IMG/VR virus record: IMGVR_UViG_3300036779_000083
Span: 1-55,910 of that record
DNA from: a virus
Lineage: Duplodnaviria > Caudoviricetes
Length of the DNA: 55,910 nt
Strand: one strand, 5' to 3'
The notes under the pieces were generated by a model. That model was not told where the DNA came from. It saw only the letters and a program-made list of their open reading frames with translations, and made no database searches. Positions 1 through 46,626 of the stretch are shown piece by piece. How positions within the stretch are numbered: position 1 is the stretch's first letter; every line of letters starts with the position of its first letter. A program made the position numbers and the translations under genes.

Positions 1-421
1 GACTTAGGCGTGCCCCGACTCGCCCCGCTGTGCTCGGCTTTGCCTAGCCAGCCTCGCCTCGCTACGCCGTGCAAGACCTTGCCCGATACGCCAAGACCAG
101 CTCTGCTCTGCCAGCCTCGACCAGCCACGCCGTGCTTTGCCATACTGTGCAGAGCAGGGACGAGCCCGACAAAGCTGCGCCGAACACTGCCAGCCTCGAT
201 CTGCTACGCCATGCTACGACGGACCGGGACAAGACGAGCCAAACGTTGCCTCGCCAGCCTCGCCAAGCCAGGACTTGCTGTGCTGTGCCATGACGAATCG
301 CGCCGCGCCAGCCTCGATCGGCCGCGCATTGCAAGACCTCGCTTCGCCGGGCCATGACTAACTACGCCAGCTTTGCCACGCTCCGCTATGTAATGCTTGG
401 CTCAGCCGCTCCTGGCCAGCC
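1..421 (-). ncRNA. Pentamer-periodic guide-like RNA array: (GGY/NGC/GTC + NN)n units separated by a 4-nt GGCT; at least 7 units, truncated at window start
   Basis: GCCAGCCTCG-like junctions on + strand at 47,110,189,253,307,366,415 (spacings 63,79,64,54,59,49 = 5n+4 except one 1-nt deletion). Strict 5-nt periodicity between junctions. Lies directly downstream of, and co-oriented with, the RAMP-like operon. Confidence 0.8.
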
Positions 422-454
422 CTTCCTTGCCTTCGACACACCGATCATCCGTTG

Positions 455-476
455 CCTGATCTCTTAAGTGATCAGG
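455..476 (-). other. Inverted repeat/hairpin between accessory gene stop and array (possible processing or leader signal)
   Basis: CCTGATC-N8-GATCAGG overlapping the TGA of ORF 472-996. Confidence 0.45.
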
Positions 477-996
477 TCGCCGGGTGTGCCGCGCCCGGGC
501 CGCCTGCGCGACGCCGAGCGATTTCTTCTTCCAGTCTTTGACGGGCTGCACGAACCATGTCGCAGATCGCCGCTAGGTCGGCGTATCGTGTTTCCCATGC
601 TTCGAGGTCACGCAAAGCAGCAGCTTCGACCAGCCTTTGTAGGTCGCGATTTGTTATGATTTCTCCAGCGCTTCTGTAAGCGGTGCCGATCCCATCACGA
701 ACAGAAACATAAGCATGCGTCGGTTCTTCGATAACCGCGGTCTCGACGTAGATGATGCTGATCAAGTTTCTCGCCTGATCGAGCCGGTATTCCGCCGCCG
801 CTTTTGCGTCGTCCCATTCGAAGTGTTTGTGACACACATGCCGTCGGTTCTGCGCCGCGGTGACGAGATGCTGTGGCTTGAGGCGGCCACCGTTCTCGTT
901 GGTGAGCCGCTCCAATGCTTCGCCGATGGCCTGCGCGTCGGCCTGTTTCGCGTTCTTTAACGGAAGTGGACCGGGCTTAAAACTGTATGTGGGCAT
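472..996 (-). CDS. Conserved phage protein, accessory to the RAMP-like gene and repeat array
   Basis: 174 aa ORF with HKHFEWDDAKAAAEYRLDQAR motif; starts 3 nt after the RAMP gene stop; GGAG RBS. Confidence 0.8.
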   Translation of the reverse strand: MPTYSFKPGPLPLKNAKQADAQAIGEALERLTNENGGRLKPQHLVTAAQNRRHVCHKHFEWDDAKAAAEYRLDQARNLISIIYVETAVIEEPTHAYVSVRDGIGTAYRSAGEIITNRDLQRLVEAAALRDLEAWETRYADLAAICDMVRAARQRLEEEIARRRAGGPGAAHPAT

Positions 997-999
997 GGG

Positions 1000-1875
1000 T
1001 TACTCCGCCGCTTCTGACATCCATTCTGCGAAATAGTCCGATATGTCGGTCTTGGGACGTACGGGCAACGGACCTTTGCCGCGAACGAACTTCATCCACG
1101 ATTCACCCTCTTCCTCGGTGGCGAGATGGAACGCGCCGAACTCGCCGGACTTCTCGGTGCGCCAGTCGCCGACGCCGCACATCACACCAGCATCGCGCAA
1201 CAAGAACAACAGGGTTTCTATCGGAAATGCGTCGGCGTTGAATTTCCCCTGGACGAGGAGAGCCCAGTTTTCGAATTGGGCTCGGTAAGCAAGAGTTGCA
1301 GTTTTGTTCAAACCGGCGCCAACGCGCACCATATCTTCGCGCATTTCCGGTTCGCCAGCGACGATGGGGATCAGCGGCAAAGTGCAGATTGCTTTTTCGA
1401 AGGCGGTTTGAACTCTCGTCATTTGAGAATCAAATTTTATGCTGGCTTGTGACAAAGTTTTCGCAACACCCTTATCTTTATGAGATACCGAGAGAATCGA
1501 CTTCTTCACCGCAGTAACCGGGAAGCCGTACATGCCGTTGCCCATGTCGTAGAGACTCGATATGAAATCGCCGTGGGGGTTGCGTTCCTCACGGCCGCCG
1601 CGCGTGGTCTTCTTTTGTTTTTTCAACATTTCCTTCTTGGCCTTCTCGGACCATGCGTGGCAAATCAGTGGTGTGTCGCCAATCAACCAGATACGGAAGC
1701 GCTTCCAGTTCGCCGGGGTGAGACGGACACCGTCCTCGATATCGGTGAGGGCGCTGCTGCTCTTGGCTTTGCGCTTGGTCGTCGTGGACTTGGCGCCGGT
1801 TATCAAGTCCTTGACCTCGGTGACCTCGACATCGGACTCGATCAGGTTTTCCAGCTTCGTCTTCTTGTTAGCCAT
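1000..1875 (-). CDS. RAMP-superfamily (Cas7/Csm3-like, Vipr-like) RNA-binding protein
   Basis: N-terminal beta-strand IWLIGDTPL, FPVTAVKKSI (cf. iPgsslKGal), C-terminal glycine-rich loop GVGDWRTEKSGEFGAF; AGGAG RBS; no other cas genes nearby. Confidence 0.75.
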   Translation of the reverse strand: MANKKTKLENLIESDVEVTEVKDLITGAKSTTTKRKAKSSSALTDIEDGVRLTPANWKRFRIWLIGDTPLICHAWSEKAKKEMLKKQKKTTRGGREERNPHGDFISSLYDMGNGMYGFPVTAVKKSILSVSHKDKGVAKTLSQASIKFDSQMTRVQTAFEKAICTLPLIPIVAGEPEMREDMVRVGAGLNKTATLAYRAQFENWALLVQGKFNADAFPIETLLFLLRDAGVMCGVGDWRTEKSGEFGAFHLATEEEGESWMKFVRGKGPLPVRPKTDISDYFAEWMSEAAE

Positions 1876-2090
1876 GACATGGTGCTCCTGTGAAAATAGG
1901 GTCGAGGCGAAAACACCTCATCTCTGTCAGTGCACATTACAAACTCGTTTGCAAGCACGGGTTACAGCGACTATACCAATGCACAGGGCCGGATCACACC
2001 AACGTATAATGCGAGCTTACAGTTCACCTGACTACACGTAACGACACCTAACAACTCCTAACAACATCCGAGGACTTCCGAGGACTTTCG
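1876..2090. promoter_or_regulatory. Divergent control region between RAMP operon and cro-like gene
   Basis: AT-richer intergenic region; TTGCAA(1949)-N17-TATACC(1972) promoter-like on +; 10-bp-periodic repeats at 2037-2086. Confidence 0.4.
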
Positions 2091-2360
2091 ATGAGCGCCA
2101 AAAAGATGCCGACTCCGCGCACCCCGCCGGGTCGTCGCCCCGAGAACCCGCCGACCGATGTGACGAAAATTCGCACCGCCGATCAGGCGCTCGACTACGT
2201 CAAGACCGCCGAGATCGAGCTGGTGATCCGCAAGGCTTGCGGTGGAATCTCACGTCCAGCTGTGCTCAACTGGCGTCGGATTCCGGCAGAGCATTGCCCG
2301 GCGATCGAGAAGGCGACGGGCATCCCCCGCGCGATCCTGCGCCCGGACATCTACAAATGA
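2091..2360 (+). CDS. Cro/YdaS-like HTH transcriptional regulator
   Basis: GISRPAVLNWRRIPAEHCPAIEKATGIPRAILRPDIY signature. Confidence 0.8.
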   Translation: MSAKKMPTPRTPPGRRPENPPTDVTKIRTADQALDYVKTAEIELVIRKACGGISRPAVLNWRRIPAEHCPAIEKATGIPRAILRPDIYK

Positions 2361-2931: not shown

Positions 2932-3297
2932 ATGACACTTCTCGACGAGGTAATCGACTTTGCACAGCGCAACGCGGAAGCGGCAAAAATCCATTGGGAT
3001 CGCGAGACGTGGCAGGTCCACCACGACAAGTGCGTCAAAGTCCGCGCCGAGATCACCAAGCTGTGCTCCGAACTCGCCGAAGTAAAAGCTGCGCGGGCAA
3101 CTGAATGGGCCGGCTTCAAGACGGCATGGGATATCCAAGCGAGCGCGCTAGAGGCGGCCCTTGCTGAAGTCGCCGACCGGAATCGCAGGATTGCGGAGTT
3201 GGAGCGCGAGTTGTTAGTCGGATGGGCCGTGAGCCTCGCCGACCGGGACCGGCGGATAGCGCAACCCAAGGCGTTCACTGAGGAGGAAAATTCGTGA
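2932..3297 (+). CDS. Hypothetical coiled-coil protein
   Basis: 121 aa ORF; GTGA overlap with the next gene. Confidence 0.6.
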   Translation: MTLLDEVIDFAQRNAEAAKIHWDRETWQVHHDKCVKVRAEITKLCSELAEVKAARATEWAGFKTAWDIQASALEAALAEVADRNRRIAELERELLVGWAVSLADRDRRIAQPKAFTEEENS

Positions 3298-3299
3298 AG
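3236..3299 (+). repeat. 64-bp direct repeat copy 1 (copy 2 at 10691-10754)
   Basis: 63/64 identical; contains the GAGGAGG RBS and GTG start. Confidence 0.9.
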
Positions 3300-4322
3300 C
3301 TTCCAGAGAGATATTCCGCCGCCCGCAAGGCGCTCGCCGCCTGTGTCAAGATCGACGAGGTGAAGAGCATTCGCGACAAGGCGATGGCGATGGAGACCTA
3401 CGCGTTCCAGGCCAAGGACGGCCAGTTGATCGCCGAGGCCACCGAGATCAAGATGCGGGCGACCCGGCGCATCGGCGAGATGATGGCCGAGCAGAAGGCG
3501 ACCGGGGTCAGGGCGAAGGGCGGCCAGCGCAAGCGGGGACCTGATACCCCGATCACTCTCGCCGATCAGAAGGTCGACAAAGACCTCGCCAAGCGGGCGC
3601 GCACGCTCGCCGAAATGTCAGCGAAGGAATTCGAAAAGCGGATCGACACCGCGATCACGCTGGCGACCGCTTCAACCTCTGGCAACAGCGAAGTCGTCAA
3701 GCTTGCCCGGGCCGAGCGGCAGAAGGAGAAAAAGACCAAGCGAGCGAAGCGCCAGCGCCAACTCGCCGCCAAGATCAAGAACCTCCCCGACCGCCGCTAT
3801 GGTGTGATCCTGGCCGATCCAGGCTGGCGTTTCGAGACCTATTCCGAAGAGACCGGAATGGATCGGGCGCCGGAGAACCACTACTCCACCGAGGAGACCG
3901 TCGACATCCGCAAATGGCCGGTCGTGCACATCGCCGCCGACGATTGCGCGTTGTTCTTGTGGGCGACCGGGCCGATGATCGAAGATGCGCTCGACGTGAT
4001 GCGGGCGTGGGACTTCACCTACGTTTCGCAGTTTTGTTGGGACAAGGAGGTCGCTGGCCCAGGCTATTGGAATCGCGGCGAGCACGAGCTGCTATTGGTC
4101 GGTACCCGCGGCAAAGTGCCGGCGCCTGCGATGGGCGATAACTTCAGCTCGATGATCCGCGAGAAGAAACGCAAGCACAGCGAAAAGCCGGAGAAGGCTT
4201 ACAAGATCATCGAAGCCTATTTCCCCGATCTGCCGAAGATCGAGTTGAATCGCCGCGGTGAACCACGCGACGGCTGGGATGCCTGGGGCAATGAGGCCGA
4301 AGAAGCGCAGGCTGCCGAATGA
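3294..4322 (+). CDS. MT-A70 family N6-adenine methyltransferase with helical N-terminal domain
   Basis: YGVILADPGW, HY, CALFLWAT, HELLLVGTRG, HSEKP, KIEL, GWDAWGNE motifs. Confidence 0.85.
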   Translation: MKLPERYSAARKALAACVKIDEVKSIRDKAMAMETYAFQAKDGQLIAEATEIKMRATRRIGEMMAEQKATGVRAKGGQRKRGPDTPITLADQKVDKDLAKRARTLAEMSAKEFEKRIDTAITLATASTSGNSEVVKLARAERQKEKKTKRAKRQRQLAAKIKNLPDRRYGVILADPGWRFETYSEETGMDRAPENHYSTEETVDIRKWPVVHIAADDCALFLWATGPMIEDALDVMRAWDFTYVSQFCWDKEVAGPGYWNRGEHELLLVGTRGKVPAPAMGDNFSSMIREKKRKHSEKPEKAYKIIEAYFPDLPKIELNRRGEPRDGWDAWGNEAEEAQAAE

Positions 4323-5317
4323 CGATTGCGTCTGGAAAAACAGCGGCGGTGATTCCGCTACGCGGTCGGAAAGTCCAGCACTACAACCCGGAGAAAGGAC
4401 TCCGCAAGATCGCCGCCGCCAAGGCTGGCGAGGAGCGTGCTCGCCGCGCTCGCGATGCCGAGGGTATGTTTCGTGAGATCGTCAAGAAGCTGAAAGCCCA
4501 GGCCGCATACATCGTCTGGCGCGACGCGGCGATGGCGGCTGTGGTGAAGCTGCGGGGTGGAAAGGGTGGAAAAGACAGTGGTCACCACTCAGGGAAGAAG
4601 GGTGCACTCTCGCCAGTGAGAGTGCACTTACCTGACGCCGATCCCGGCGAGAAGACCGCCCACCGCTGGCGCCGCGACCTCTGCTCGAAGGTCGACAAGG
4701 TCACCGTCGTCGACGAGGCAAAATTTGCGCTGGCCGCCGACGACGCCAAGAACCGGGCGCTGCGCGCCTGCGAACGTCAATCGAAGGGCACCGAGCGCGG
4801 CACCGCTGGCACCGGAGAGTTTGAGCGCTACACTCCGCCGCAGTACATCGAGGCGGCGCGCAAGGTACTCGGCGAGATCGATCTCGATCCGGCGACCAGT
4901 CCGATGGCGCAGAAAACGGTGAGGGCCAAGCAATTCTTCACCGAAGATACCAACGGCCTCGATCGTGAATGGCACGGCCGGGTGTGGCTCAATCCACCCT
5001 ATCATCGCGATCTGGCACCGGCCTTCATCAGCAAGTTGGTGGCGGAGATCGAAGCTGGCCACGTGACCGCCGCCGTCATGCTCACCAACAACTCGACCGA
5101 CACCGACTGGTTTGATACGGCGCTGCGCGCCTGTGCCAGCGTATGCTTCACGCACGGGCGTATCGCCTTCACGACGCCGCCGATCGGCACTGAGGTTGAC
5201 CCGACACAAGGGCAGGCGTTTTTCTATTACGGCGACGATCCGACTCGTTTCGAGGACGTGTTCTGTGTCATCGGCTCGTGCGTGCGCCCGAGCCGACAAT
5301 ATGTTGAGGTTGAGTGA
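4319..5317 (+). CDS. Phage Dam-like DNA N6-adenine methyltransferase
   Basis: YTPPQY, IDLDPA, GL-EW-GRVWLNPPY, GRIAF motifs. Confidence 0.85.
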   Translation: MTIASGKTAAVIPLRGRKVQHYNPEKGLRKIAAAKAGEERARRARDAEGMFREIVKKLKAQAAYIVWRDAAMAAVVKLRGGKGGKDSGHHSGKKGALSPVRVHLPDADPGEKTAHRWRRDLCSKVDKVTVVDEAKFALAADDAKNRALRACERQSKGTERGTAGTGEFERYTPPQYIEAARKVLGEIDLDPATSPMAQKTVRAKQFFTEDTNGLDREWHGRVWLNPPYHRDLAPAFISKLVAEIEAGHVTAAVMLTNNSTDTDWFDTALRACASVCFTHGRIAFTTPPIGTEVDPTQGQAFFYYGDDPTRFEDVFCVIGSCVRPSRQYVEVE

Positions 5318-19138: not shown

Positions 19139-19698
19139 GCGACCTCCTCCTTGTTGAAGCCGTTGACCGCGGCCTGCAGCTTGGCGACCTCGGCGCGGTA
19201 GAGATCGCGCGCCTCGGTGATCGAGCCCCAGTGCCATGTGTTTTGGTCGTAGAACGTGCTGTGGTTATTGGGATCGAGCGCTGTCACGTGCATGGTGACG
19301 CCGATCACCTTGCCGACCGCCATCAGAATGTCGCCAGCCTCGCCGACGCGGTAGCGGGTCAGCTCTTTGTCGATCCGCCGCAGCGTGGTGTGCGCCCGGC
19401 CGGCGATCTTTAAGGTGACGTAGGATAGTTGTTCGAACTCGATGCTCGGTCCGATCAGCATGGCGCGGCCTGGGATGTGTGTCGGTCCCGATAGCCACGT
19501 GCGGATCACGAGGCCATTGAGCAACAAGCCGTCGGTGCGCTTGGGTGCGTCCCACAGCGAGTCCTCGCCCTCGGAACGCGGGTTGATTGGAGAGGTGGCA
19601 TCGCCCTCGCGCACGAGAATGCGCGCAGCCACCGACGGGCAACCGGCCCATTTATTGGTATCGATGGCGAAGGCGTAGGATCGCAGCTTGTCGTTCAT
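19135..19698 (-). CDS. Hypothetical protein
   Basis: 187 aa ORF coupled to neighbours. Confidence 0.6.
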   Translation of the reverse strand: MNDKLRSYAFAIDTNKWAGCPSVAARILVREGDATSPINPRSEGEDSLWDAPKRTDGLLLNGLVIRTWLSGPTHIPGRAMLIGPSIEFEQLSYVTLKIAGRAHTTLRRIDKELTRYRVGEAGDILMAVGKVIGVTMHVTALDPNNHSTFYDQNTWHWGSITEARDLYRAEVAKLQAAVNGFNKEEVA

Positions 19699-29014: not shown

Positions 29015-30079
29015 ATGAGCCTTGCCTTCGACGCGAGCCGTCGATCGGTTGATCCGACCGGCACCTCGAAGCTGCGCGGCAAATTTCGAAGCGATCTGCA
29101 ACTGCGGCTTCGCATGCTGCGGGCACAGCTGCGGGTCGCCGTTGTGGAGCATGATGTTCTTGCGTTGGGTCGCGGCGGCATCATGTCTTACCACCCGCCG
29201 GACGTACGCTTGCGCGCATTCAGTCACTGGCTAGAGGTCGCGGTCGCGAGCCTCGTCGCCGGGCATTGGGTGCGCAATTACATCATGCATGCGTCCGAAG
29301 CTGGCGTGGCGGCAGCGGTGAAGGAGTTGAACCTCGGCACCGCTGCCGTCCGTCAAGCATCATCGAACGACCTGCTTGAAGAGCAGACCGTCAACGAGAT
29401 CGTCGGCATCGGCGACGCGATGATCCAACAGGTCACCCGCTGCGCCATGGTGGTGATCCGTCGCGGCATGAAGGCACCGAAAGCTTACGCTATGTTGGCG
29501 TCGGCGTTCGAGAAGGTGGCGCTGTCGCGCACCAAGTCGCTTGCCGACACCGCGGTGGTTGCTGCATATAATGGCGGCAAATTAGATGTGTACGAAGCTG
29601 CTGGGATTACCCACGTTGGGGTCGATCCAGAACTAGAAGGGCGACCGCATGAACGGTCGCCCTCCCGTCGTCCTGGCCAGCCTCGCCTAGACGTGCTTCG
29701 CCAGAACTTGCCGCGCGTGGGCTTGCAAAGCCGCGACGTGCCACACAACGGCGATTCAGTATCTACCACGGAGGTTGGAATTGACCCAGAAATTCATCCA
29801 GGGACCCTACGGTCCGATACCAGTGACGCAGCCACCGGCCACAACCGTCCGCCTGTCAAGCGCCGCCGTTCTCGGTGGAAGGCCGAAGCAGTTGGTGTCC
29901 GTACAGCCGGGGACGAGAAAGTTTGCCTCACCTGCGAAGCTATTGCCGAGGACGCGCCTTACACGACCGCTGAGGCGCGGGAGCTGATCCCAGCTCACCC
30001 ACACTGTCGCTGCAGCGTCTTTCCATGGTTCGACAAACGATTTCGTCGTGACAGTTCATTGGCTGGCGGGCTGTCATGA
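29015..30079 (+). CDS. Minor head protein, SPP1 gp7/Mu gpF (MuF) family
   Basis: DPTGT N-terminus; TAGDEKVCLTC...IPAHPHCRC. Confidence 0.75.
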   Translation: MSLAFDASRRSVDPTGTSKLRGKFRSDLQLRLRMLRAQLRVAVVEHDVLALGRGGIMSYHPPDVRLRAFSHWLEVAVASLVAGHWVRNYIMHASEAGVAAAVKELNLGTAAVRQASSNDLLEEQTVNEIVGIGDAMIQQVTRCAMVVIRRGMKAPKAYAMLASAFEKVALSRTKSLADTAVVAAYNGGKLDVYEAAGITHVGVDPELEGRPHERSPSRRPGQPRLDVLRQNLPRVGLQSRDVPHNGDSVSTTEVGIDPEIHPGTLRSDTSDAATGHNRPPVKRRRSRWKAEAVGVRTAGDEKVCLTCEAIAEDAPYTTAEARELIPAHPHCRCSVFPWFDKRFRRDSSLAGGLS

Positions 30080-32416: not shown

Positions 32417-35400
32417 ATGAACGTCGCGGCACCCAATATCTTGCGCTTCCCACGCGCGTGGTTCGACGCTACGCGTGACAGCTTTCAGAACTTCCTCGCT
32501 GGCTTTGGTGTGCCCGGCCGCGACAAGTCGGTATCGCAGTTCTGGTGGTATTGGCCGCTCGATGTCCAGCAGCTCGAAGCCGCCTATGCCAGCGATTGGG
32601 TGGCGCGCAAGATCGTCGAGATACCGGCGTTCGATGCGACGCGCTCATGGCGGCTATGGCAGGCTGACAAGGAGGATCAGAAGAAGATCGAAGAGGCCGA
32701 GCGCCAATACAATCTGCAGCGCAAGCTGCTCGATGCACTGATCAAGGCGCGGCTCTATGGCGGCTCGGCGATCATCCTCGGCGTCAACCAGGGCACGTTT
32801 CAGGACGAGCTGGAAATCGACAAGGTCGGCAAGGACGATCTCAAGTTCGTCCATGTGGTGAGCCGTTACGGGCTCGCCGCCGGCCCGACGGTGAAAGAGA
32901 TCACTTCGCCGTGGTACGGCCACCCGACCTACTATCAGCGCGCCAATGTGGTCACGGTTGCGCCGCCCGGTGGCGTCGAGCCGATCGGCGAGCCGACCAT
33001 GGGGCAGCTGCCCGGCGACATGCTCTACATCCATCCATCGCGCGTGATCCGGCTGATCGGGCTCGATTACCCCGACGTGGAGCGGGCGCCAGATGCGTGG
33101 GGCATCACCGTGCTGCAGCCGGTCGCTGACGCGCTCAAGTCCGCCGGCATGGTGACCTCGTCGATGGCGGCGATGATCGCCGAGGCCAAGCTCGACATCA
33201 TCAAGGTGCCCGGGCTCACCGCGAAGATGCAGACCGCCGAAGGCACCCAGAATGTGCTTAGCCGGTTCATGCAGACCAACGTCGCCAAGTCGAGCATCAA
33301 CGCGTTGCTGCTCGACAAGGAGGAGGAATGGGAGCGCCATCAGCTGCAGCTCGCCAACTACGACAAGGTGCTCAGCTCGTATTTCCTGCTGTGCTGTGCC
33401 GCCGCCGACGTTCCGGCGACGCGGTTCATGGGCCGCGAGCCGGCCGGGCAGAACGCTACCGGCGACAGTGACACCAGAAATTATTACGATCGCCTCGCCT
33501 CCGATCAGAAGGTGCGCCAGACCCCGGCGCTGCGTCCGCTCGACGAGGTGTTGCTGCGCTCGACCTTCGGCAGCCGCGACGACGCATGGCGCTACGACTG
33601 GAATGCGCTGTGGCTGATGTCGGACGCCGAGAAGGCCGATGTCGAATTGAAGAAGGCGCAGGCGCACAAGATCGATGTCGACGCCGGGCTGCTGTCGCCG
33701 CACGTGCTGCAGATCGGCCGCGAGAACTCGCTCGTCGAGTCGGGCTTCCTGTATCCCGGCATCGAGTCCGCGATCGAGGACGAGGCCGATTGGGACGCCG
33801 AGGAAGGCGTCGCCGAGGCGCGCACAAAGGGGCAGATGGACCCCAATGATCCCGACGTGATCGCCGCCAAGAGCAAGGCGATGACCAAGGGCATGCAGCA
33901 AGCCGGCGGTAAGCCGGGGATGCCGTTCAAGCCCGGCGGCAAGCCCGGCGGCCGGCCCAACGGCGGCAAGCCGAACGGCGGCGTGCGTGATGCACGCCGC
34001 AATCCTTTCCGCCGTCTCGCCCGTCTTCGTGACGCGCCACCGCCACCGCCAACTTTCGTCCCCGAGCTGCATCCGCACGATCCCAAGACCGGCCAGTGGG
34101 CGACCACCGTTACCGGCGATCCGCTGCAGATGAACCCGGAGGTGGTGAGCGTTGGTGGTGATGCGTGGAATCAGAAGACCGGGGCGCGGCTTGAATTCGA
34201 GTATGCGCGCATCAAGCCGCTACTCGACAAGCTCGCCGGTGATCTCGTCGCGGGCCGCGCCGAAGATGTGCCGGACGAGGACGAGGACAAGGATCAACCT
34301 TACGTTCCCGAGAGCTGGGATGAGCTGTCGAGCGATCAGCAGGAAGAGGCGAAGACCAAGTGGAAGGAGGCGAGCTTCTCCGAATACAAGGACAGCGAAA
34401 TCCAGAATCAGTATGACAGCGGCTACATGCTCGAACAGGGCAAGCGCGACACGTTGGAAGAATGGAAGGACGCGCCGACCAAGCACTCGACGGTGAGTGG
34501 CGAGACGCTGGAATGGCCGGACTGGGCGAGCGAGGCGATCGACGAGGTGATCGACGAGCATGCCGAGGCTGGCAAGCGCCTTCGCTTCACCAAGGATCAA
34601 ATCCTCAAGGCGCTGACGATCGACGCCGGCAAATACGGCGAGTTCGGTGGTGACGGCAGCGGCGATCCAAATGTCGACTTTGACGATAGCGAGCTGACCG
34701 ATCCGGCCGGCTATGATCCGAGCGAAGTATTCCCCGGCTTCGAGAAGCTAGAGCCGTCGAGCTTCCTCACCGAGGACCAGCGCGACGACATCATCAAGGC
34801 GATTACCGACGCTTTCAACAAAGAGGGCGACAGCAAAGCCGACAAGCTCGATGCCTCGGATTACATCGACGAGAGCAGCATCGACGACTATCAGGACGAA
34901 TCCTGGGAGCACAGTTTCTCGGACCAGCAGAAGTGGGAATACGCCGAGCAATATCTGGAGCTGGGCGAGCAGGAGAGCCATCGCGAGACGCCGGAGCCGA
35001 CTCAGGTGGTGATGCCAGCGCACTTCGATCCGATGGGCGATCCCGACGCTGACGATGATTACAAGAACGACCGCGACTATCAGAACACCAAGGCGCTCGG
35101 CCGTGCGATGTCGATCGCGCGGGCGGTGGAGGTGAGCAAGGAGCGCGGCATCGACACCGACGAGGCGACCGTTCGCGACATGGACTCGACGCTGTGGCGC
35201 GACTGGAAGTCGTCATCGACCTCGCCAAATGGCAAGCTATTGCAGCTCGCCATCGCCGACGAGCTGGGCGGGCGCCTGCATGAGGAGCGCATCGGCAATC
35301 CGGCCGATGTCGAGCGGACGAAGCGTGAAGGCAACAAGTGGGGCGGCTACGACGCGGTGAAGGCTTACATCCGCGGCAAGTGGGAGACCACGCAATATCT

Positions 35401-44639: not shown

Positions 44640-44864
44640 ATGCCCAAGTCGACCCGTCACCACAACATGGCGCGCAAGGCGGCGATGAATGCGCCGGAGA
44701 AGAAGCCCTACCTCATCACCGATCCGTCGCACCTGCCCGACCTGCGCGGTGAATTCGCCGGCGCCAAGGTCAAGCGCCAGGGCGGCCAGCAGATTGTGTA
44801 CCTCACGCCAGCCCAGGCCAAGTTCTACAAGGATCAGGGCGCGCTGAAGCCGCTCGCGTCATGA
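44640..44864 (+). CDS. Small baseplate-region protein
   Basis: AGGAG RBS; YLTPAQAKFY. Confidence 0.55.
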   Translation: MPKSTRHHNMARKAAMNAPEKKPYLITDPSHLPDLRGEFAGAKVKRQGGQQIVYLTPAQAKFYKDQGALKPLAS

Positions 44865-45460
44865 GCAACGGCACCAGCACCAACGGCAACGTCACCGCCG
44901 ACACCATCGCGGAGAGCGGCGTCGACTTCCCGGTCGTCGACAACGAGTTCTATCGCTCGGTCAACGCGATCTGGCCTGACCTGCTCAATCAGACGGCCAA
45001 CATCTCGCCGCCGCGCAACGGCATGGATCGCTACACTGGCAAGCTGCTACAGGGCTGGCCGCATGTCGAGCAGTCGATGGAGCTGATCTTCGCGACGCCG
45101 TACCACGAACGGGTGTTACGCCGTTGGGTCGGAAGCTTCGTGCCGATGCTGCTCGGCGAGAACTTCGTCGATCGCATCATCATGCGGTTCTACTGGGCGA
45201 TCGTCACCGGCATCGATCTGTGGGAGCCGGACTACCGCATCCGCCAAGTCTACTTCATGGGCGATGCACTGCTTGGCTGGGCGCCGCTGCCGACCACGTC
45301 AGCGGCGCAGATGGTGCGGCTCGGGCACGCGATCTTTCGCAATGAAGGGGTCTATCGCCCGCGCGGCCACCTCGGTGACTTCAGTCCGGCCGAGGCCAAG
45401 AACTCGGCGATCACCGGCCGCGGTGACAACATGTGGGATGTCGTCAGCACGCCGGGATAA
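44861..45460 (+). CDS. Baseplate wedge protein, gpW/gp25 family
   Basis: GMDRYTG--L-GW-HVEQS, TP--RV-RR--GS, WEPDYRI. Confidence 0.85.
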   Translation: MSNGTSTNGNVTADTIAESGVDFPVVDNEFYRSVNAIWPDLLNQTANISPPRNGMDRYTGKLLQGWPHVEQSMELIFATPYHERVLRRWVGSFVPMLLGENFVDRIIMRFYWAIVTGIDLWEPDYRIRQVYFMGDALLGWAPLPTTSAAQMVRLGHAIFRNEGVYRPRGHLGDFSPAEAKNSAITGRGDNMWDVVSTPG

Positions 45461-45464
45461 AAAA

Positions 45465-45500
45465 ACGGCGAGGCGCATCACTGCGGCCCGCCGTCTCTTT
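45465..45500 (+). terminator. Possible intrinsic terminator or hairpin
   Basis: ACGGCG...CGCCGT stem followed by CTCTTT. Confidence 0.3.
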
Positions 45501-45597
45501 GGTTTAGCCCAGCCAAGCCGTACCACGCAAAGATTGGCCTGGACATACCCGTCCTTGACGCAGCTCACATAATCGATCTGACCGGAGGTTGCAAGCT

Positions 45598-46626
45598 GTG
45601 GCTTCAAATCTTGTTTCAACGACACCGACAAGATTCCCGGTCATCCGCCCCGACCTGTTGCCGCCGATGGCGGTGCTTGAATCGATCTCGACCGAAGACA
45701 TCATTGCAAATAGAATGCAAAGTCTAGTTACATTTTGGGCGGAGAACGATCCGCCCAACGCCGCGCAGTACGATGTCGGCGGCCTCGAATTCGATCCGAT
45801 CCGCATCAACCAAGAACTCAATGCCTATTACGAGCTGATGCTGCGCGACCGGGTGAACCAAGCCTGTCGCGCGATGACCTTGGCGTTTGCCGTCGGCAGC
45901 GACCTCGACGCGATCGGCTCGCGCTATCCGTACGGCGTGCCGCGGCTCGTCTTTCCCGACGGCACGACCGAGACCGACGACGCCTATCGCCAGCGGCTGT
46001 GGCTGTCGCCGTCGATCTTCAGCTTGTCGGGGACCGGGCAGGGCACCTTCGAGTCGTACGTGTTCTGGGCGCTCTCTGCGCCGATGCCGCCCGGTGAGGA
46101 TTCGATCAAGCATGCCTCGGCGCTGACCACGCCCGGTACGGGTTACGTCTACATCCCGATCATCAGCTCGACCTGCAGCAATCCGAACATGGTGTGGTCG
46201 TCGTCGCCGGACGGCACCATCTGGACGCTGATCCCCGGCACCCTGCCGCTGCCGGATGCAAACCAGATCAACGCGGTCCAGCAGTTCATCACCGCGCCCA
46301 ACACCGCCCGCAAAGGGCTTACCGACGTGGTGGTGACGATGACGCCGAAGATCATCAACACTACGATCAATTGCGACGTGTGGCTGTTCCCCGGCGTCGA
46401 CATGATGACGTTGATGGGCCAGATCGCTGCGGCGGTCGGTGCACTGGTCACCGCGCTGCGCTGGCTCGGCGCCGATCTCACGCTGCTGTCGCTCGACGGT
46501 GCGCTCGCCCAGGCCGGCGTCTACGATCGTACCACCTACCAGCCGACTGCCGATGTCATCGTCGGCATCGACGGCGTCGTCAACATCACCCAGGTGACGC
46601 TGCGCTATCGCGGCACGGGTGAGTAA
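45598..46626 (+). CDS. Baseplate assembly protein J (P2 gpJ-like)
   Basis: LRDRVNQA, AVGSDLDAIG, ETDDAYRQR, YVFWALSA, LTDVV. Confidence 0.88.
   Translation: MASNLVSTTPTRFPVIRPDLLPPMAVLESISTEDIIANRMQSLVTFWAENDPPNAAQYDVGGLEFDPIRINQELNAYYELMLRDRVNQACRAMTLAFAVGSDLDAIGSRYPYGVPRLVFPDGTTETDDAYRQRLWLSPSIFSLSGTGQGTFESYVFWALSAPMPPGEDSIKHASALTTPGTGYVYIPIISSTCSNPNMVWSSSPDGTIWTLIPGTLPLPDANQINAVQQFITAPNTARKGLTDVVVTMTPKIINTTINCDVWLFPGVDMMTLMGQIAAAVGALVTALRWLGADLTLLSLDGALAQAGVYDRTTYQPTADVIVGIDGVVNITQVTLRYRGTGE

What the first reader, a model, noticed from the sequence alone, without database searches (positions are those of the whole stretch)
373..417. First array unit encodes a gapped match to the RAMP gene itself, skipping wobble positions
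U1 dinucleotides CA GC TG CA AT AT GG GT align with + strand 1652-1674, CAtGCgTGgCAaATcAGtGGtGT. That is 15 of 16 specified bases (AT vs AG); the ninth dinucleotide AA does not match TC. The skipped bases are the third codon positions of the T-P-L-I-C-H-A-W motif of the RAMP gene, and the guide itself spells T-P-[IM]-[IM]-[CW]-[HQ]-A-[CW]. A rough hand estimate (equal base frequencies) gives about 1e-3 chance matches this good per unit in the whole window, before counting that it lands in the cognate gene in codon phase. Inference: autoregulation, or attack on homologous systems of rival phages. This is the best internal evidence for the NN-x code.
Basis: partly seen in the sequence, partly recalled or inferred. 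Interest (0 to 1): 0.92.

Follow-up and report, generated by a model that had tools for sequence, protein, structure and literature searches.

The report
VIPR guide RNA aimed at vipr
The repeat tract and its neighbouring gene form a phage VIPR system, a recently described RNA-guided DNA-silencing machine, and its first guide matches the most conserved codons of the system's own protein gene, which suggests self-control or an attack on close rival phages.

Summary
The eight dinucleotides of unit 1 match + strand 1652-1674 at 15 of 16 bases. Every skipped base is a third codon position of T68-W75 in the minus-strand gene 1000-1875.

The locus is a VIPR system, described in 2026 bioRxiv preprints. 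It has a Vipr RAMP protein (profile hit to the solved SUSP1 Vipr, E 3e-10; Csm3/Cas7-like fold). A conserved accessory gene follows, then a staggered array of GGY-NN pentamers.

The match is unlikely to be chance:
- 0 of 200 shuffled guides reach 15/16.
- The family-wise estimate over all guides is 0.03.
- It lies in the cognate gene, in codon phase, and covers exactly the eight hypervariable units.

It is not a conserved family trait: 33 of 35 distinct related loci show nothing comparable. The only close relative, an 84% identical protein carrying TPIICHAW, must match 16 of 16 by the genetic code. I therefore favour a guide aimed at kin VIPR systems, with one mismatch to self. Autoregulation is the main rival.

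The system is a new member of a known kind. A guide this close to its own gene is not reported in the preprint text I read.

The parts
1000..1875 (-). vipr gene (291 aa), a RAMP-fold guide-RNA-binding protein with an N-terminal extension of about 55 residues modelled at low confidence
   Evidence: A profile of 32 homologs hits PDB 36pp_D 'SUSP1 Vipr protein' at E 3.2e-10, with its G-loop GVGDWR aligned. The AF2 model has pLDDT 78, and Foldseek's top hits are Csm3/Cas7/Cmr4-6 at E 3e-4 to 1e-3. It falls in phrog_4652 with no Pfam or NCBIfam match. At least 2730 homologs exist, all unnamed.
472..996 (-). vap-like accessory gene (174 aa) immediately downstream of vipr
   Evidence: phrog_15946, function unknown. 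A homolog lies directly downstream of vipr in 59 of 77 related loci. There is no PDB, Pfam or NCBIfam match. Which published vap class it belongs to could not be checked because supplements are closed.
1..461 (-). Staggered vrRNA array of GGY-NN-type pentamers, cut by the contig end. Guides run 417-368, 368-309, 309-255, 255-191, 191-112, 112-83, 83-49 and 49-1.
   Evidence: Parsed from the sequence. Successive guides overlap by 1 nt. The scaffold triplet is GGY in 39 of 85 units and within one change of GGC in 74 of 85. The same tract on the vipr strand is called in 63 of 72 loci.
378..417 (-). vrRNA U1, hypervariable units 1-8 (NN = CA GC TG CA AT AT GG GT)
   Evidence: These eight units are exactly the matching part.
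368..377 (-). vrRNA U1, units 9-10 (NN = AA, TG), the semi-conserved 3' end shared with the family
   Evidence: Over 181 distinct guides, NN entropy is 1.19 bits in the last unit and 3.19 bits in the penultimate unit (AA in 58 of 181). Units further 5' have 3.86-3.91 bits. In the window, 5 of 7 guides end in ..Cga GGCtg.
1652..1674 (.). Predicted U1 target site inside vipr, over codons T68-W75 (TPLICHAW). The vrRNA would pair with the minus (coding) strand.
   Evidence: 15 of 16 paired positions, with skipped bases at codon position 3. The motif is the most conserved block of the family, with I71, H73 and W75 invariant in 32 sequences.
1876..2090 (.). Divergent control region between vipr and a Cro/YdaS-type gene (2091-2360), with tandem 10-nt repeats at 2025-2091. 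It probably holds the promoter of the vipr-vap-array operon (inferred).
   Evidence: Tandem repeats. YdaS_toxin/phrog_35 repressor-type hits for 2091-2360. No promoter was demonstrated.

Best explanation
Window 1-1875 (minus strand) is a VIPR (Viral Interference Programmable Repeat) operon of a temperate-type phage: vipr, then a vap-like gene, then a staggered vrRNA array.

By the published mechanism, Vipr protomers polymerise along each vrRNA, one per pentamer. They bury the GGY triplet and present the two NN bases. The NN bases pair with double-stranded DNA while skipping every third target base, and the bound filament silences transcription.

The first full-length guide, U1, is a genuine vipr-directed guide. 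Its eight hypervariable dinucleotides specify codon positions 1-2 of the TP(I/L)ICHAW strand of Vipr. That block includes an invariant histidine and cannot change without changing the protein.

My preferred reading is that U1 is aimed at the vipr genes of closely related rival phages. It fits the TPIICHAW variant of the only known close relative at 16/16. The phage's own copy carries Leu (CTG) in place of Ile and so has one unpaired base. Some repression of its own operon is a likely side effect.

Shown here: the anatomy, the match, its statistics, and the family membership of the protein. Inferred: transcription and processing of the array, binding of U1 to either target, and the effect of the single mismatch.
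For: - VIPR identity: protein; array; accessory gene; published rule, sections read.
- The match is non-random and specific to the one-base skip.
- It lies in the cognate gene in codon phase, as published natural targets do.
- It spans exactly the eight hypervariable units and stops where the family's semi-conserved 3' end begins.
- Among the 120 best homologs, one (P0002, 84% identical, the nearest relative) has TPIICHAW. All eight of its residues have fixed first and second codon bases, so it must match 16/16. Six, including the window's own protein, have TPLICHAW (15/16). The others reach at most 13-14.
- A self-score lower than the non-self score is the pattern published for anti-VIPR guides. 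vrRNAs that target other VIPR systems are published.
Against: - Self differs from kin by a single base of 16. The papers treat 80% or more NN identity as a target, so the phage's own gene would probably be bound as well, which blurs the line with autoregulation.
- P0002's DNA and array were not obtained, so the 16/16 figure is deduced from protein sequence alone.
- No exact 16/16 target in a vipr gene exists in IMG/VR. The 7 exact hits there all lie outside vipr homologs.
- Across 312 distinct guides and 56 distinct vipr segments there is no general excess of vipr-directed guides: 3 hits at 15/16 or better against a shuffled mean of 1.85.
- Counted over all ten units, the self-match is 15/20, which is not significant on its own.
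Confidence: 0.45

Rival explanations
1. Autoregulation is the selected function. The U1 RNP binds inside the phage's own vipr coding region, about 200 bp downstream of the start codon. There it blocks transcription of the whole vipr-vap-array operon, giving negative feedback on Vipr and vrRNA levels.
For: - The best match of U1 among all sequence examined, apart from loci fetched by the pattern itself, is its own gene: 15/16 against 12-14/18 in 26 other loci.
- The guide carries the dinucleotide for Cys72, a variant found in only 8 of 120 homologs, so it is tuned to its own lineage.
- 94% identity over the variable units exceeds the 80% threshold used in the papers.
- The site lies upstream of everything the operon encodes.
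- One further locus, L015, has a first guide that matches the same motif region of its own vipr at 16/20, though out of codon phase.
Against: - It is not conserved: 33 of 35 distinct loci have no guide against the motif. No array among 26 viral loci held an anti-TPLIxHAW guide within 3 mismatches of 14.
- A guide selected for self-binding would be expected to match perfectly, yet its one mismatch is exactly the Ile/Leu difference from its kin.
- The published surveys found no self-target at 80% or above. 'Autoregul' does not occur in the three VIPR preprints.
Confidence: 0.3
2. The match is a coincidence. U1 has another target that was not sampled here, and its resemblance to vipr has no consequence.
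For: - Short guides reach high identity by chance. Over all ten units, 15/20 is reached by 22% of shuffled guides.
- The family-wise probability of a 15/16 sub-window match anywhere in the window is 0.03.
- The finding was picked from a large scan, and the choice of eight units was made after the fact.
- Two other 15/16 guide-vipr hits across loci look random, since both are out of phase.
Against: - A chance hit would fall within vipr only about 1.6% of the time and in codon phase one time in three. The joint chance is of order 1e-4 to 1e-3 for this window (my arithmetic).
- The match ends exactly at the boundary of the hypervariable units.
- It lies on the most conserved motif.
- It is perfect for the only close relative.
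Confidence: 0.1
3. The pentamer tract is not a guide array. It is instead a binding platform in which a protein reads the triplets and the NN bases are meaningless spacers, as with TRAP-type or centromere-type repeats.
For: This was my first idea, from the 3+2 periodicity alone. No expression data exist for this locus.
Against: - The protein is homologous to a Vipr whose structure and guide function are solved and tested.
- NN entropy is near maximal (3.86-3.91 of 4 bits) beside fixed triplets.
- Only the one-base skip gives the match.
Confidence: 0.03

Closest known systems
VIPR systems (Vipr + vrRNA + Vap), bioRxiv 10.64898/2026.04.26.720920, 10.64898/2026.04.26.720927 and 10.64898/2026.10.15.759431. 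The characterised examples are type II systems from Escherichia phage SUSP1 and a Pseudomonas fulva prophage.
   Same: - Phage-encoded minimal operon of one RAMP protein and one accessory gene.
- Guides of 8-18 pentamers (mode 10-12) with a GGY-type scaffold and hypervariable NN.
- Target match only under the 1-nt skip, with skips at wobble positions.
- A G-loop GVGDWR that aligns with the SUSP1 residues reported to hold the GG bases.
- Guides against vipr genes are published.
   Different: - The protein is only distantly related to SUSP1 Vipr. The profile match covers about 70 residues, and this protein is 291 aa against 202.
- The scaffold is relaxed, with many AGC, GTC and TGC triplets.
- The array is of the staggered 1-nt-overlap kind, mentioned only in a figure legend of the first preprint, and has no long pseudoknot tail between guides.
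- The probable host is an alphaproteobacterium.
- The guide matches its own contig at 94% of its variable positions (83% over nine units, 75% over ten). The published surveys found no self-hit at 80% or above.
Solo and anti-VIPR vrRNAs of SUSP1-family phages (10.64898/2026.10.15.759431, section read)
   Same: The guides are directed at the vipr coding sequence of competitors. Self-match scores are lower than non-self scores.
   Different: Those guides sit in phages that have lost vipr-vap, or they target other phages' vrRNAs. Here the guide is the first of the array in a phage that keeps vipr, and its own gene is only one base away from a perfect target.
Class 1 CRISPR Cas7/Csm3/Cmr4 backbone filaments
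   Same: RRM/RAMP fold, glycine-rich loop and thumb. One protomer binds per repeat of the guide, with periodic base flipping (Foldseek hits; paper text).
   Different: - The period is 5 nt with three guide bases displaced and one target base skipped, rather than 6 nt with one flipped on each strand.
- There is no CRISPR repeat-spacer array and there are no other cas genes.
- There is no adaptation module.
Guide-RNA autoregulation in CRISPR systems: the long-form tracrRNA of Cas9 and Cas-regulating CreR-type RNAs (recalled, not read here)
   Same: A natural guide with near-complete complementarity directs the effector to its own operon for repression. This is the analogue of the autoregulation rival.
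   Different: Those guides target promoters with deliberately short matches so as to avoid cleavage. Here the site is inside the coding region, and the effector is not known to cut.

Membership tests
VIPR system | Vipr protein: a single-RRM RAMP with G-loop and thumb, homologous to characterised Vipr | tested here: met
   The profile of 32 homologs hits PDB 36pp_D 'SUSP1 Vipr protein' at E 3.2e-10. The G-loop GvGeWR is aligned to GVGDWR. The AF2 model's best Foldseek hits are Csm3/Cas7/Cmr subunits, probability 0.9-1.0 and TM 0.3-0.5.
VIPR system | vrRNA: tandem pentamers with a conserved GGY (or related) triplet and hypervariable NN, 9-16 units per guide | tested here: met
   Window guides have 10, 12, 11, 13 and 16 units, plus two short ones of 6 and 7. 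GGY occurs in 39 of 85 units and 74 of 85 are within one change of GGC, so the consensus is relaxed. NN entropy is 3.86-3.91 bits at internal units over 181 guides.
VIPR system | Locus of vipr plus one accessory (vap) gene flanked by the array, on one strand | tested here: met
   A vap-like homolog lies directly downstream of vipr in 59 of 77 loci. Arrays are called on the vipr strand in 63 of 72 loci, against 12 of 72 with any call on the other strand. Identity with a named vap1-6 class was not testable because supplements are closed.
VIPR system | Target recognition by the 1-nt skip rule, with skips at wobble positions | tested here: met
   U1 gives 15/16 only with a one-base skip, against 12, 13 and 13 for skips of 0, 2 and 3. 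All skipped bases are codon position 3. The other guides found no target in the window or in 84 fetched loci. Public collections were not scanned for them.
VIPR system | vrRNAs are expressed, processed and co-purify with Vipr; the RNP binds DNA and silences transcription | not testable with these tools
   No RNA run is listed as holding the locus. In relative L003 the array ends at an 11-bp GC-rich hairpin; the scan calls it terminator-like on the opposite strand only, and a T-run after it on the array strand is seen by eye.
VIPR system | Mainly encoded by phages or prophages | tested here: met
   The window is an IMG/VR record with head-morphogenesis and baseplate genes. Relatives lie in viral contigs and in alphaproteobacterial genomes.
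CRISPR-Cas class 1 (Cas7 backbone) | CRISPR repeat-spacer array, 6-nt guide periodicity and accompanying cas genes | tested here: not met
   The period is 5 nt. The Rfam scan of the whole window found no family. The neighbouring genes are a vap-like gene and a Cro/YdaS-type gene.
TRAP-like or centromere-like triplet-repeat binding site | Spacer bases carry no information and the unit number is fixed by the oligomer | tested here: not met
   Unit numbers vary from 6 to 16. The NN of U1 carry a specific, skip-dependent match.

The most novel reading that the evidence does not exclude
U1 is a dedicated autoregulatory vrRNA. A phage VIPR system would then use its first guide to bind inside its own vipr gene and set the level of the whole vipr-vap-array operon. 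This would be the first self-directed feedback loop in VIPR and a functional parallel to guide-RNA autoregulation of CRISPR-Cas. The same guide would also disarm superinfecting kin.
Probability: 0.3. Interest if true: 0.6.

Novelty: new member of a known kind. Interest (0 to 1): 0.45.

Why it matters
That code was published in 2026 as the 1-nt skip rule of VIPR systems, so the main idea is right but already known.

What this locus adds:
- A distant, alphaproteobacterial-phage branch of the family with a staggered array.
- A guide whose variable part matches its own vipr gene at 15/16 and its nearest relative at 16/16, on the codons of the most conserved strand of the protein.

The published surveys found no self-hit at 80% or above. 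This locus is therefore a natural test case for two open questions. How many mismatches does VIPR tolerate? And how does a VIPR-carrying phage tell its own vipr from a rival's, or does it use the match to regulate itself?

Tried and rejected
- A TRAP-like or centromere-like reading of the 3+2 repeat was my first idea. I dropped it after the PDB hit to Vipr.
- Pfam and NCBIfam gave nothing for vipr or vap. A PDB sequence search for vap gave only noise. Rfam gave no family in the whole window.
- A first dynamic-programming array caller was too permissive, chaining whole loci, and was discarded. It was replaced by a fixed-register caller.
- The exact 16-base pattern in IMG/VR gave 7 stretches, none in a vipr homolog.
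- The search for an anti-TPLIxHAW guide in the arrays of 26 viral loci found none within 3 mismatches of 14.
- The cross-locus test for general vipr targeting showed no excess.
- The other window guides and the two candidate solo guides had no target above the null in the window or in 84 fetched loci. U3's 15/18 at P 0.03 is not significant after eight tests.
- Attempts to reach the contig encoding the 84% relative P0002 failed. It was absent from the viral, metagenome and genome scans.
- Sequencing runs: no RNA holder is listed. Run X2 holds short contigs of a relative with about 2% differences over 375-1167. No difference is listed within 375-417, which covers most of U1, and the target site is not covered, so there is no covariation test.
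- Supplements of the preprints were closed. The type definitions, the lists of vrRNAs that target other VIPR systems and the staggered-array figure could not be checked, and they may already include this clade.
- Public collections were not scanned with NNx patterns for the other guides, because that needs typed patterns built from joined window dinucleotides.

Full report
**1. The observation**

The window is a complete IMG/VR record of 55,910 bp. It is linear, estimated at about 62% complete, and has 61% G+C.

Read on the minus strand, positions 461 to 1 form a run of pentamers, each with a fairly constant triplet and two free bases. Unit 1 of the finding is real. Its dinucleotides are CA GC TG CA AT AT GG GT AA. 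With one free base between dinucleotides, the first eight match + strand 1652-1674 at 15 of 16. All skipped bases are third codon positions of residues T68-W75 (TPLICHAW) of the minus-strand ORF 1000-1875.

**2. What the locus is**

The 291-aa ORF has no Pfam or NCBIfam match. It belongs to an unannotated PHROG and has more than 2,700 unnamed homologs.

A profile of 32 homologs hits one solved structure, 36pp chain D "SUSP1 Vipr protein", at E 3.2e-10. The glycine-rich loop GVGDWR is aligned in that hit. An AlphaFold model (pLDDT 78) finds Csm3, Cas7, Cmr4/6 and Cas7-11 as its best structural matches. The "RAMP gene" label is therefore correct.

A full-text search found three bioRxiv preprints of 2026 on VIPR systems. 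I read:
- the Results, the Discussion and two Methods sections of 10.64898/2026.04.26.720920;
- three Results sections of 10.64898/2026.04.26.720927;
- one Results and one Methods section of 10.64898/2026.10.15.759431.

They report the following. Vipr is a phage-borne RAMP. It polymerises on vrRNAs made of 9-16 GGY-NN pentamers. The NN bases pair with double-stranded DNA while every third target base is skipped. Natural targets lie mostly in coding sequence with the skip at the wobble position, and binding silences transcription.

**3. Conservation of the module**

I fetched 26 viral, 45 metagenomic and 6 genomic loci that encode relatives.
- A lag-5 periodic tract follows the gene in 20 of 26 viral loci.
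- A fixed-register caller finds GGY-NN runs on the vipr strand in 63 of 72 loci. Only 12 of 72 have any run on the other strand.
- A homolog of the 174-aa second ORF lies directly downstream of vipr in 59 of 77 loci.
- In L003 the array is 1.2 kb long and ends at a GC-rich hairpin. The scan calls it terminator-like on the opposite strand only; the T-run after it on the array strand is seen by eye.
- The genomic hits are mostly alphaproteobacterial (Tianweitania, Sphingomonadaceae).

**4. Array architecture**

Successive guides overlap by one base in 262 of the junctions called across the loci. This fits the "staggered arrays" that the first preprint mentions in a figure legend.

Guides have 8-18 units, with a mode of 10-12. 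Over 181 distinct guides, the last unit's NN is nearly fixed (1.19 bits) and the penultimate is biased (3.19 bits; AA in 58 of 181). Units further 5' are near the 4-bit maximum (3.86-3.91 bits).

U1 is therefore 417-368 with ten units. Its last two units (AA, TG) follow the family's 3' end pattern, and its eight hypervariable units are exactly the ones that match vipr.

**5. Is the match chance?**

- For the eight variable units, 0 of 200 shuffled guides reach 15/16. Only the one-base skip gives 15; the other skips give 12, 13 and 13.
- 0 of 100 dinucleotide-preserving shuffles of the window hold a site with at most one mismatch.
- Over all six guides of at least 8 units and all their 8-unit sub-windows, 9 of 300 shuffles reach 15. 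The family-wise estimate is 0.03.
- A random hit would lie in vipr about 1.6% of the time and in codon phase one time in three. This is my arithmetic.
- Against this, over all ten units the score is 15/20, which 22% of shuffles reach. The choice of eight units was made after seeing the data, although one search gives an independent reason for it.

I put chance at about 0.1.

**6. Is it a family trait?**

No.
- No array in the 26 viral loci holds a guide against the TPLIxHAW codons within 3 mismatches of 14.
- Across 312 distinct guides and 56 distinct vipr segments there are 3 hits at 15/16 or better, against a shuffled mean of 1.85. Only the window's hit is in codon phase.
- In a motif-centred test on 35 distinct loci, two exceed all 200 shuffles: the window (15/16) and L015. 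In L015 the first guide matches the same region of its own vipr at 13/16 (16/20 full length), but out of codon phase. The other 33 show nothing.

**7. Self or kin?**

The motif is the most conserved block of the protein, with I71, H73 and W75 invariant in 32 sequences.

Among the 120 best homologs:
- 79 carry DTPLITHAW;
- 6, including the window's own protein, carry TPLICHAW;
- 1 carries DSPLICHAW;
- 1 carries TPIICHAW. This is P0002, the nearest relative at 84% identity.

Thr, Pro, Ile, Cys, His, Ala and Trp all have fixed first and second codon bases. P0002's gene must therefore match U1 at 16/16, and the common variants reach at most 13-14. U1's observed scores against the motif in 26 other loci are 12-14 of 18.

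So the guide is tuned to its own lineage, and its single mismatch to self is the Ile/Leu difference from its only known kin. This fits the published pattern for anti-VIPR guides, in which self-match scores are lower than non-self scores. One base in 16 is a thin margin, however. The papers treat 80% identity as a target and report no self-hit at that level in their surveys. The word "autoregul" does not occur in the three VIPR preprints.

I rank kin-directed silencing first (0.45), autoregulation second (0.30) and chance third (0.10).

**8. What could not be done**

- Run X2 holds a relative with about 2% differences. No difference is listed within 375-417, which covers most of U1, and the target site is not covered.
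- No RNA run is listed for the locus.
- The other guides were not scanned against public collections.

**9. Verdict**

The system is a new, distant member of the published VIPR family. The near-perfect match of a guide to its own vipr gene is the one element not reported in the preprint text I read.

Noticed in passing
window 45505-45559 (-), hairpin at about 45463-45500 (-): Candidate solo vrRNA. Eleven GGY-NN-type pentamers lie on the minus strand in the gap between two plus-strand baseplate genes (44861-45460 and 45589-46626). They are followed by a strong hairpin and a run of seven U (fold z -4.6). No target above the null was found in the window.
   Followed up: partly
window 29678-29742 (-), hairpin 29630-29672 (-): Thirteen pentamers end with the same junction motif as the main array's guides (exact 10-mer at 29676-29685). 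A very stable hairpin follows (-38 kcal/mol, z -5.9). The element lies antisense inside a 354-aa head-morphogenesis ORF (29015-30079), in the stretch of residues 199-296 that lies between the PHROG-matched parts. It could be a solo vrRNA cassette, or it could be chance.
   Followed up: partly
window 19333-19342 (-) and 34564-34573 (+): Two further exact copies of the array's 10-base junction motif. The window holds 8 copies in all against 0.27 expected by chance. Neither of these two has pentamer periodicity beside it, and both lie in coding sequence, so they are probably chance.
   Followed up: yes
window 2025-2091: Tandem 10-nt repeats (4.2 copies, then 2.5 copies of a second unit) lie between vipr and the divergent Cro/YdaS-type gene at 2091-2360. 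They are likely operator or promoter elements of the switch region.
   Followed up: no
window 455-476 (-): A 7-bp hairpin overlaps the stop codon of the vap-like gene, just 5' of the array (fold z -2.2). It may be a processing site or a 5' boundary.
   Followed up: partly
window 3294-4322 and 4319-5317 (+): Two adjacent DNA methyltransferase genes (MT-A70 family and Dam family) lie in the early region.
   Followed up: no
L015 5241-5290 versus L015 4132-4160: The first guide of this distant relative's array matches the GDTPLISHAW region of its own vipr at 16/20, on the same strand as in the window. The skipped bases fall at codon position 2. Its close relatives L010-L016 do not share this guide.
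   Followed up: partly
L017/L050 and L060: In these loci the pentamer arrays lie upstream of vipr rather than downstream, so array position varies within the family.
   Followed up: no
L003 3517-4735: An unusually long array of about 1.2 kb with 20 called guides. It is followed by an 11-bp GC-rich hairpin shared with a convergent gene; the scan calls it terminator-like on that gene's strand only.
   Followed up: partly
window 1-2: The independent Logan contig of run X1 starts at window position 2. Both assemblies therefore break inside the array, and more guides probably lie beyond the contig end.
   Followed up: no
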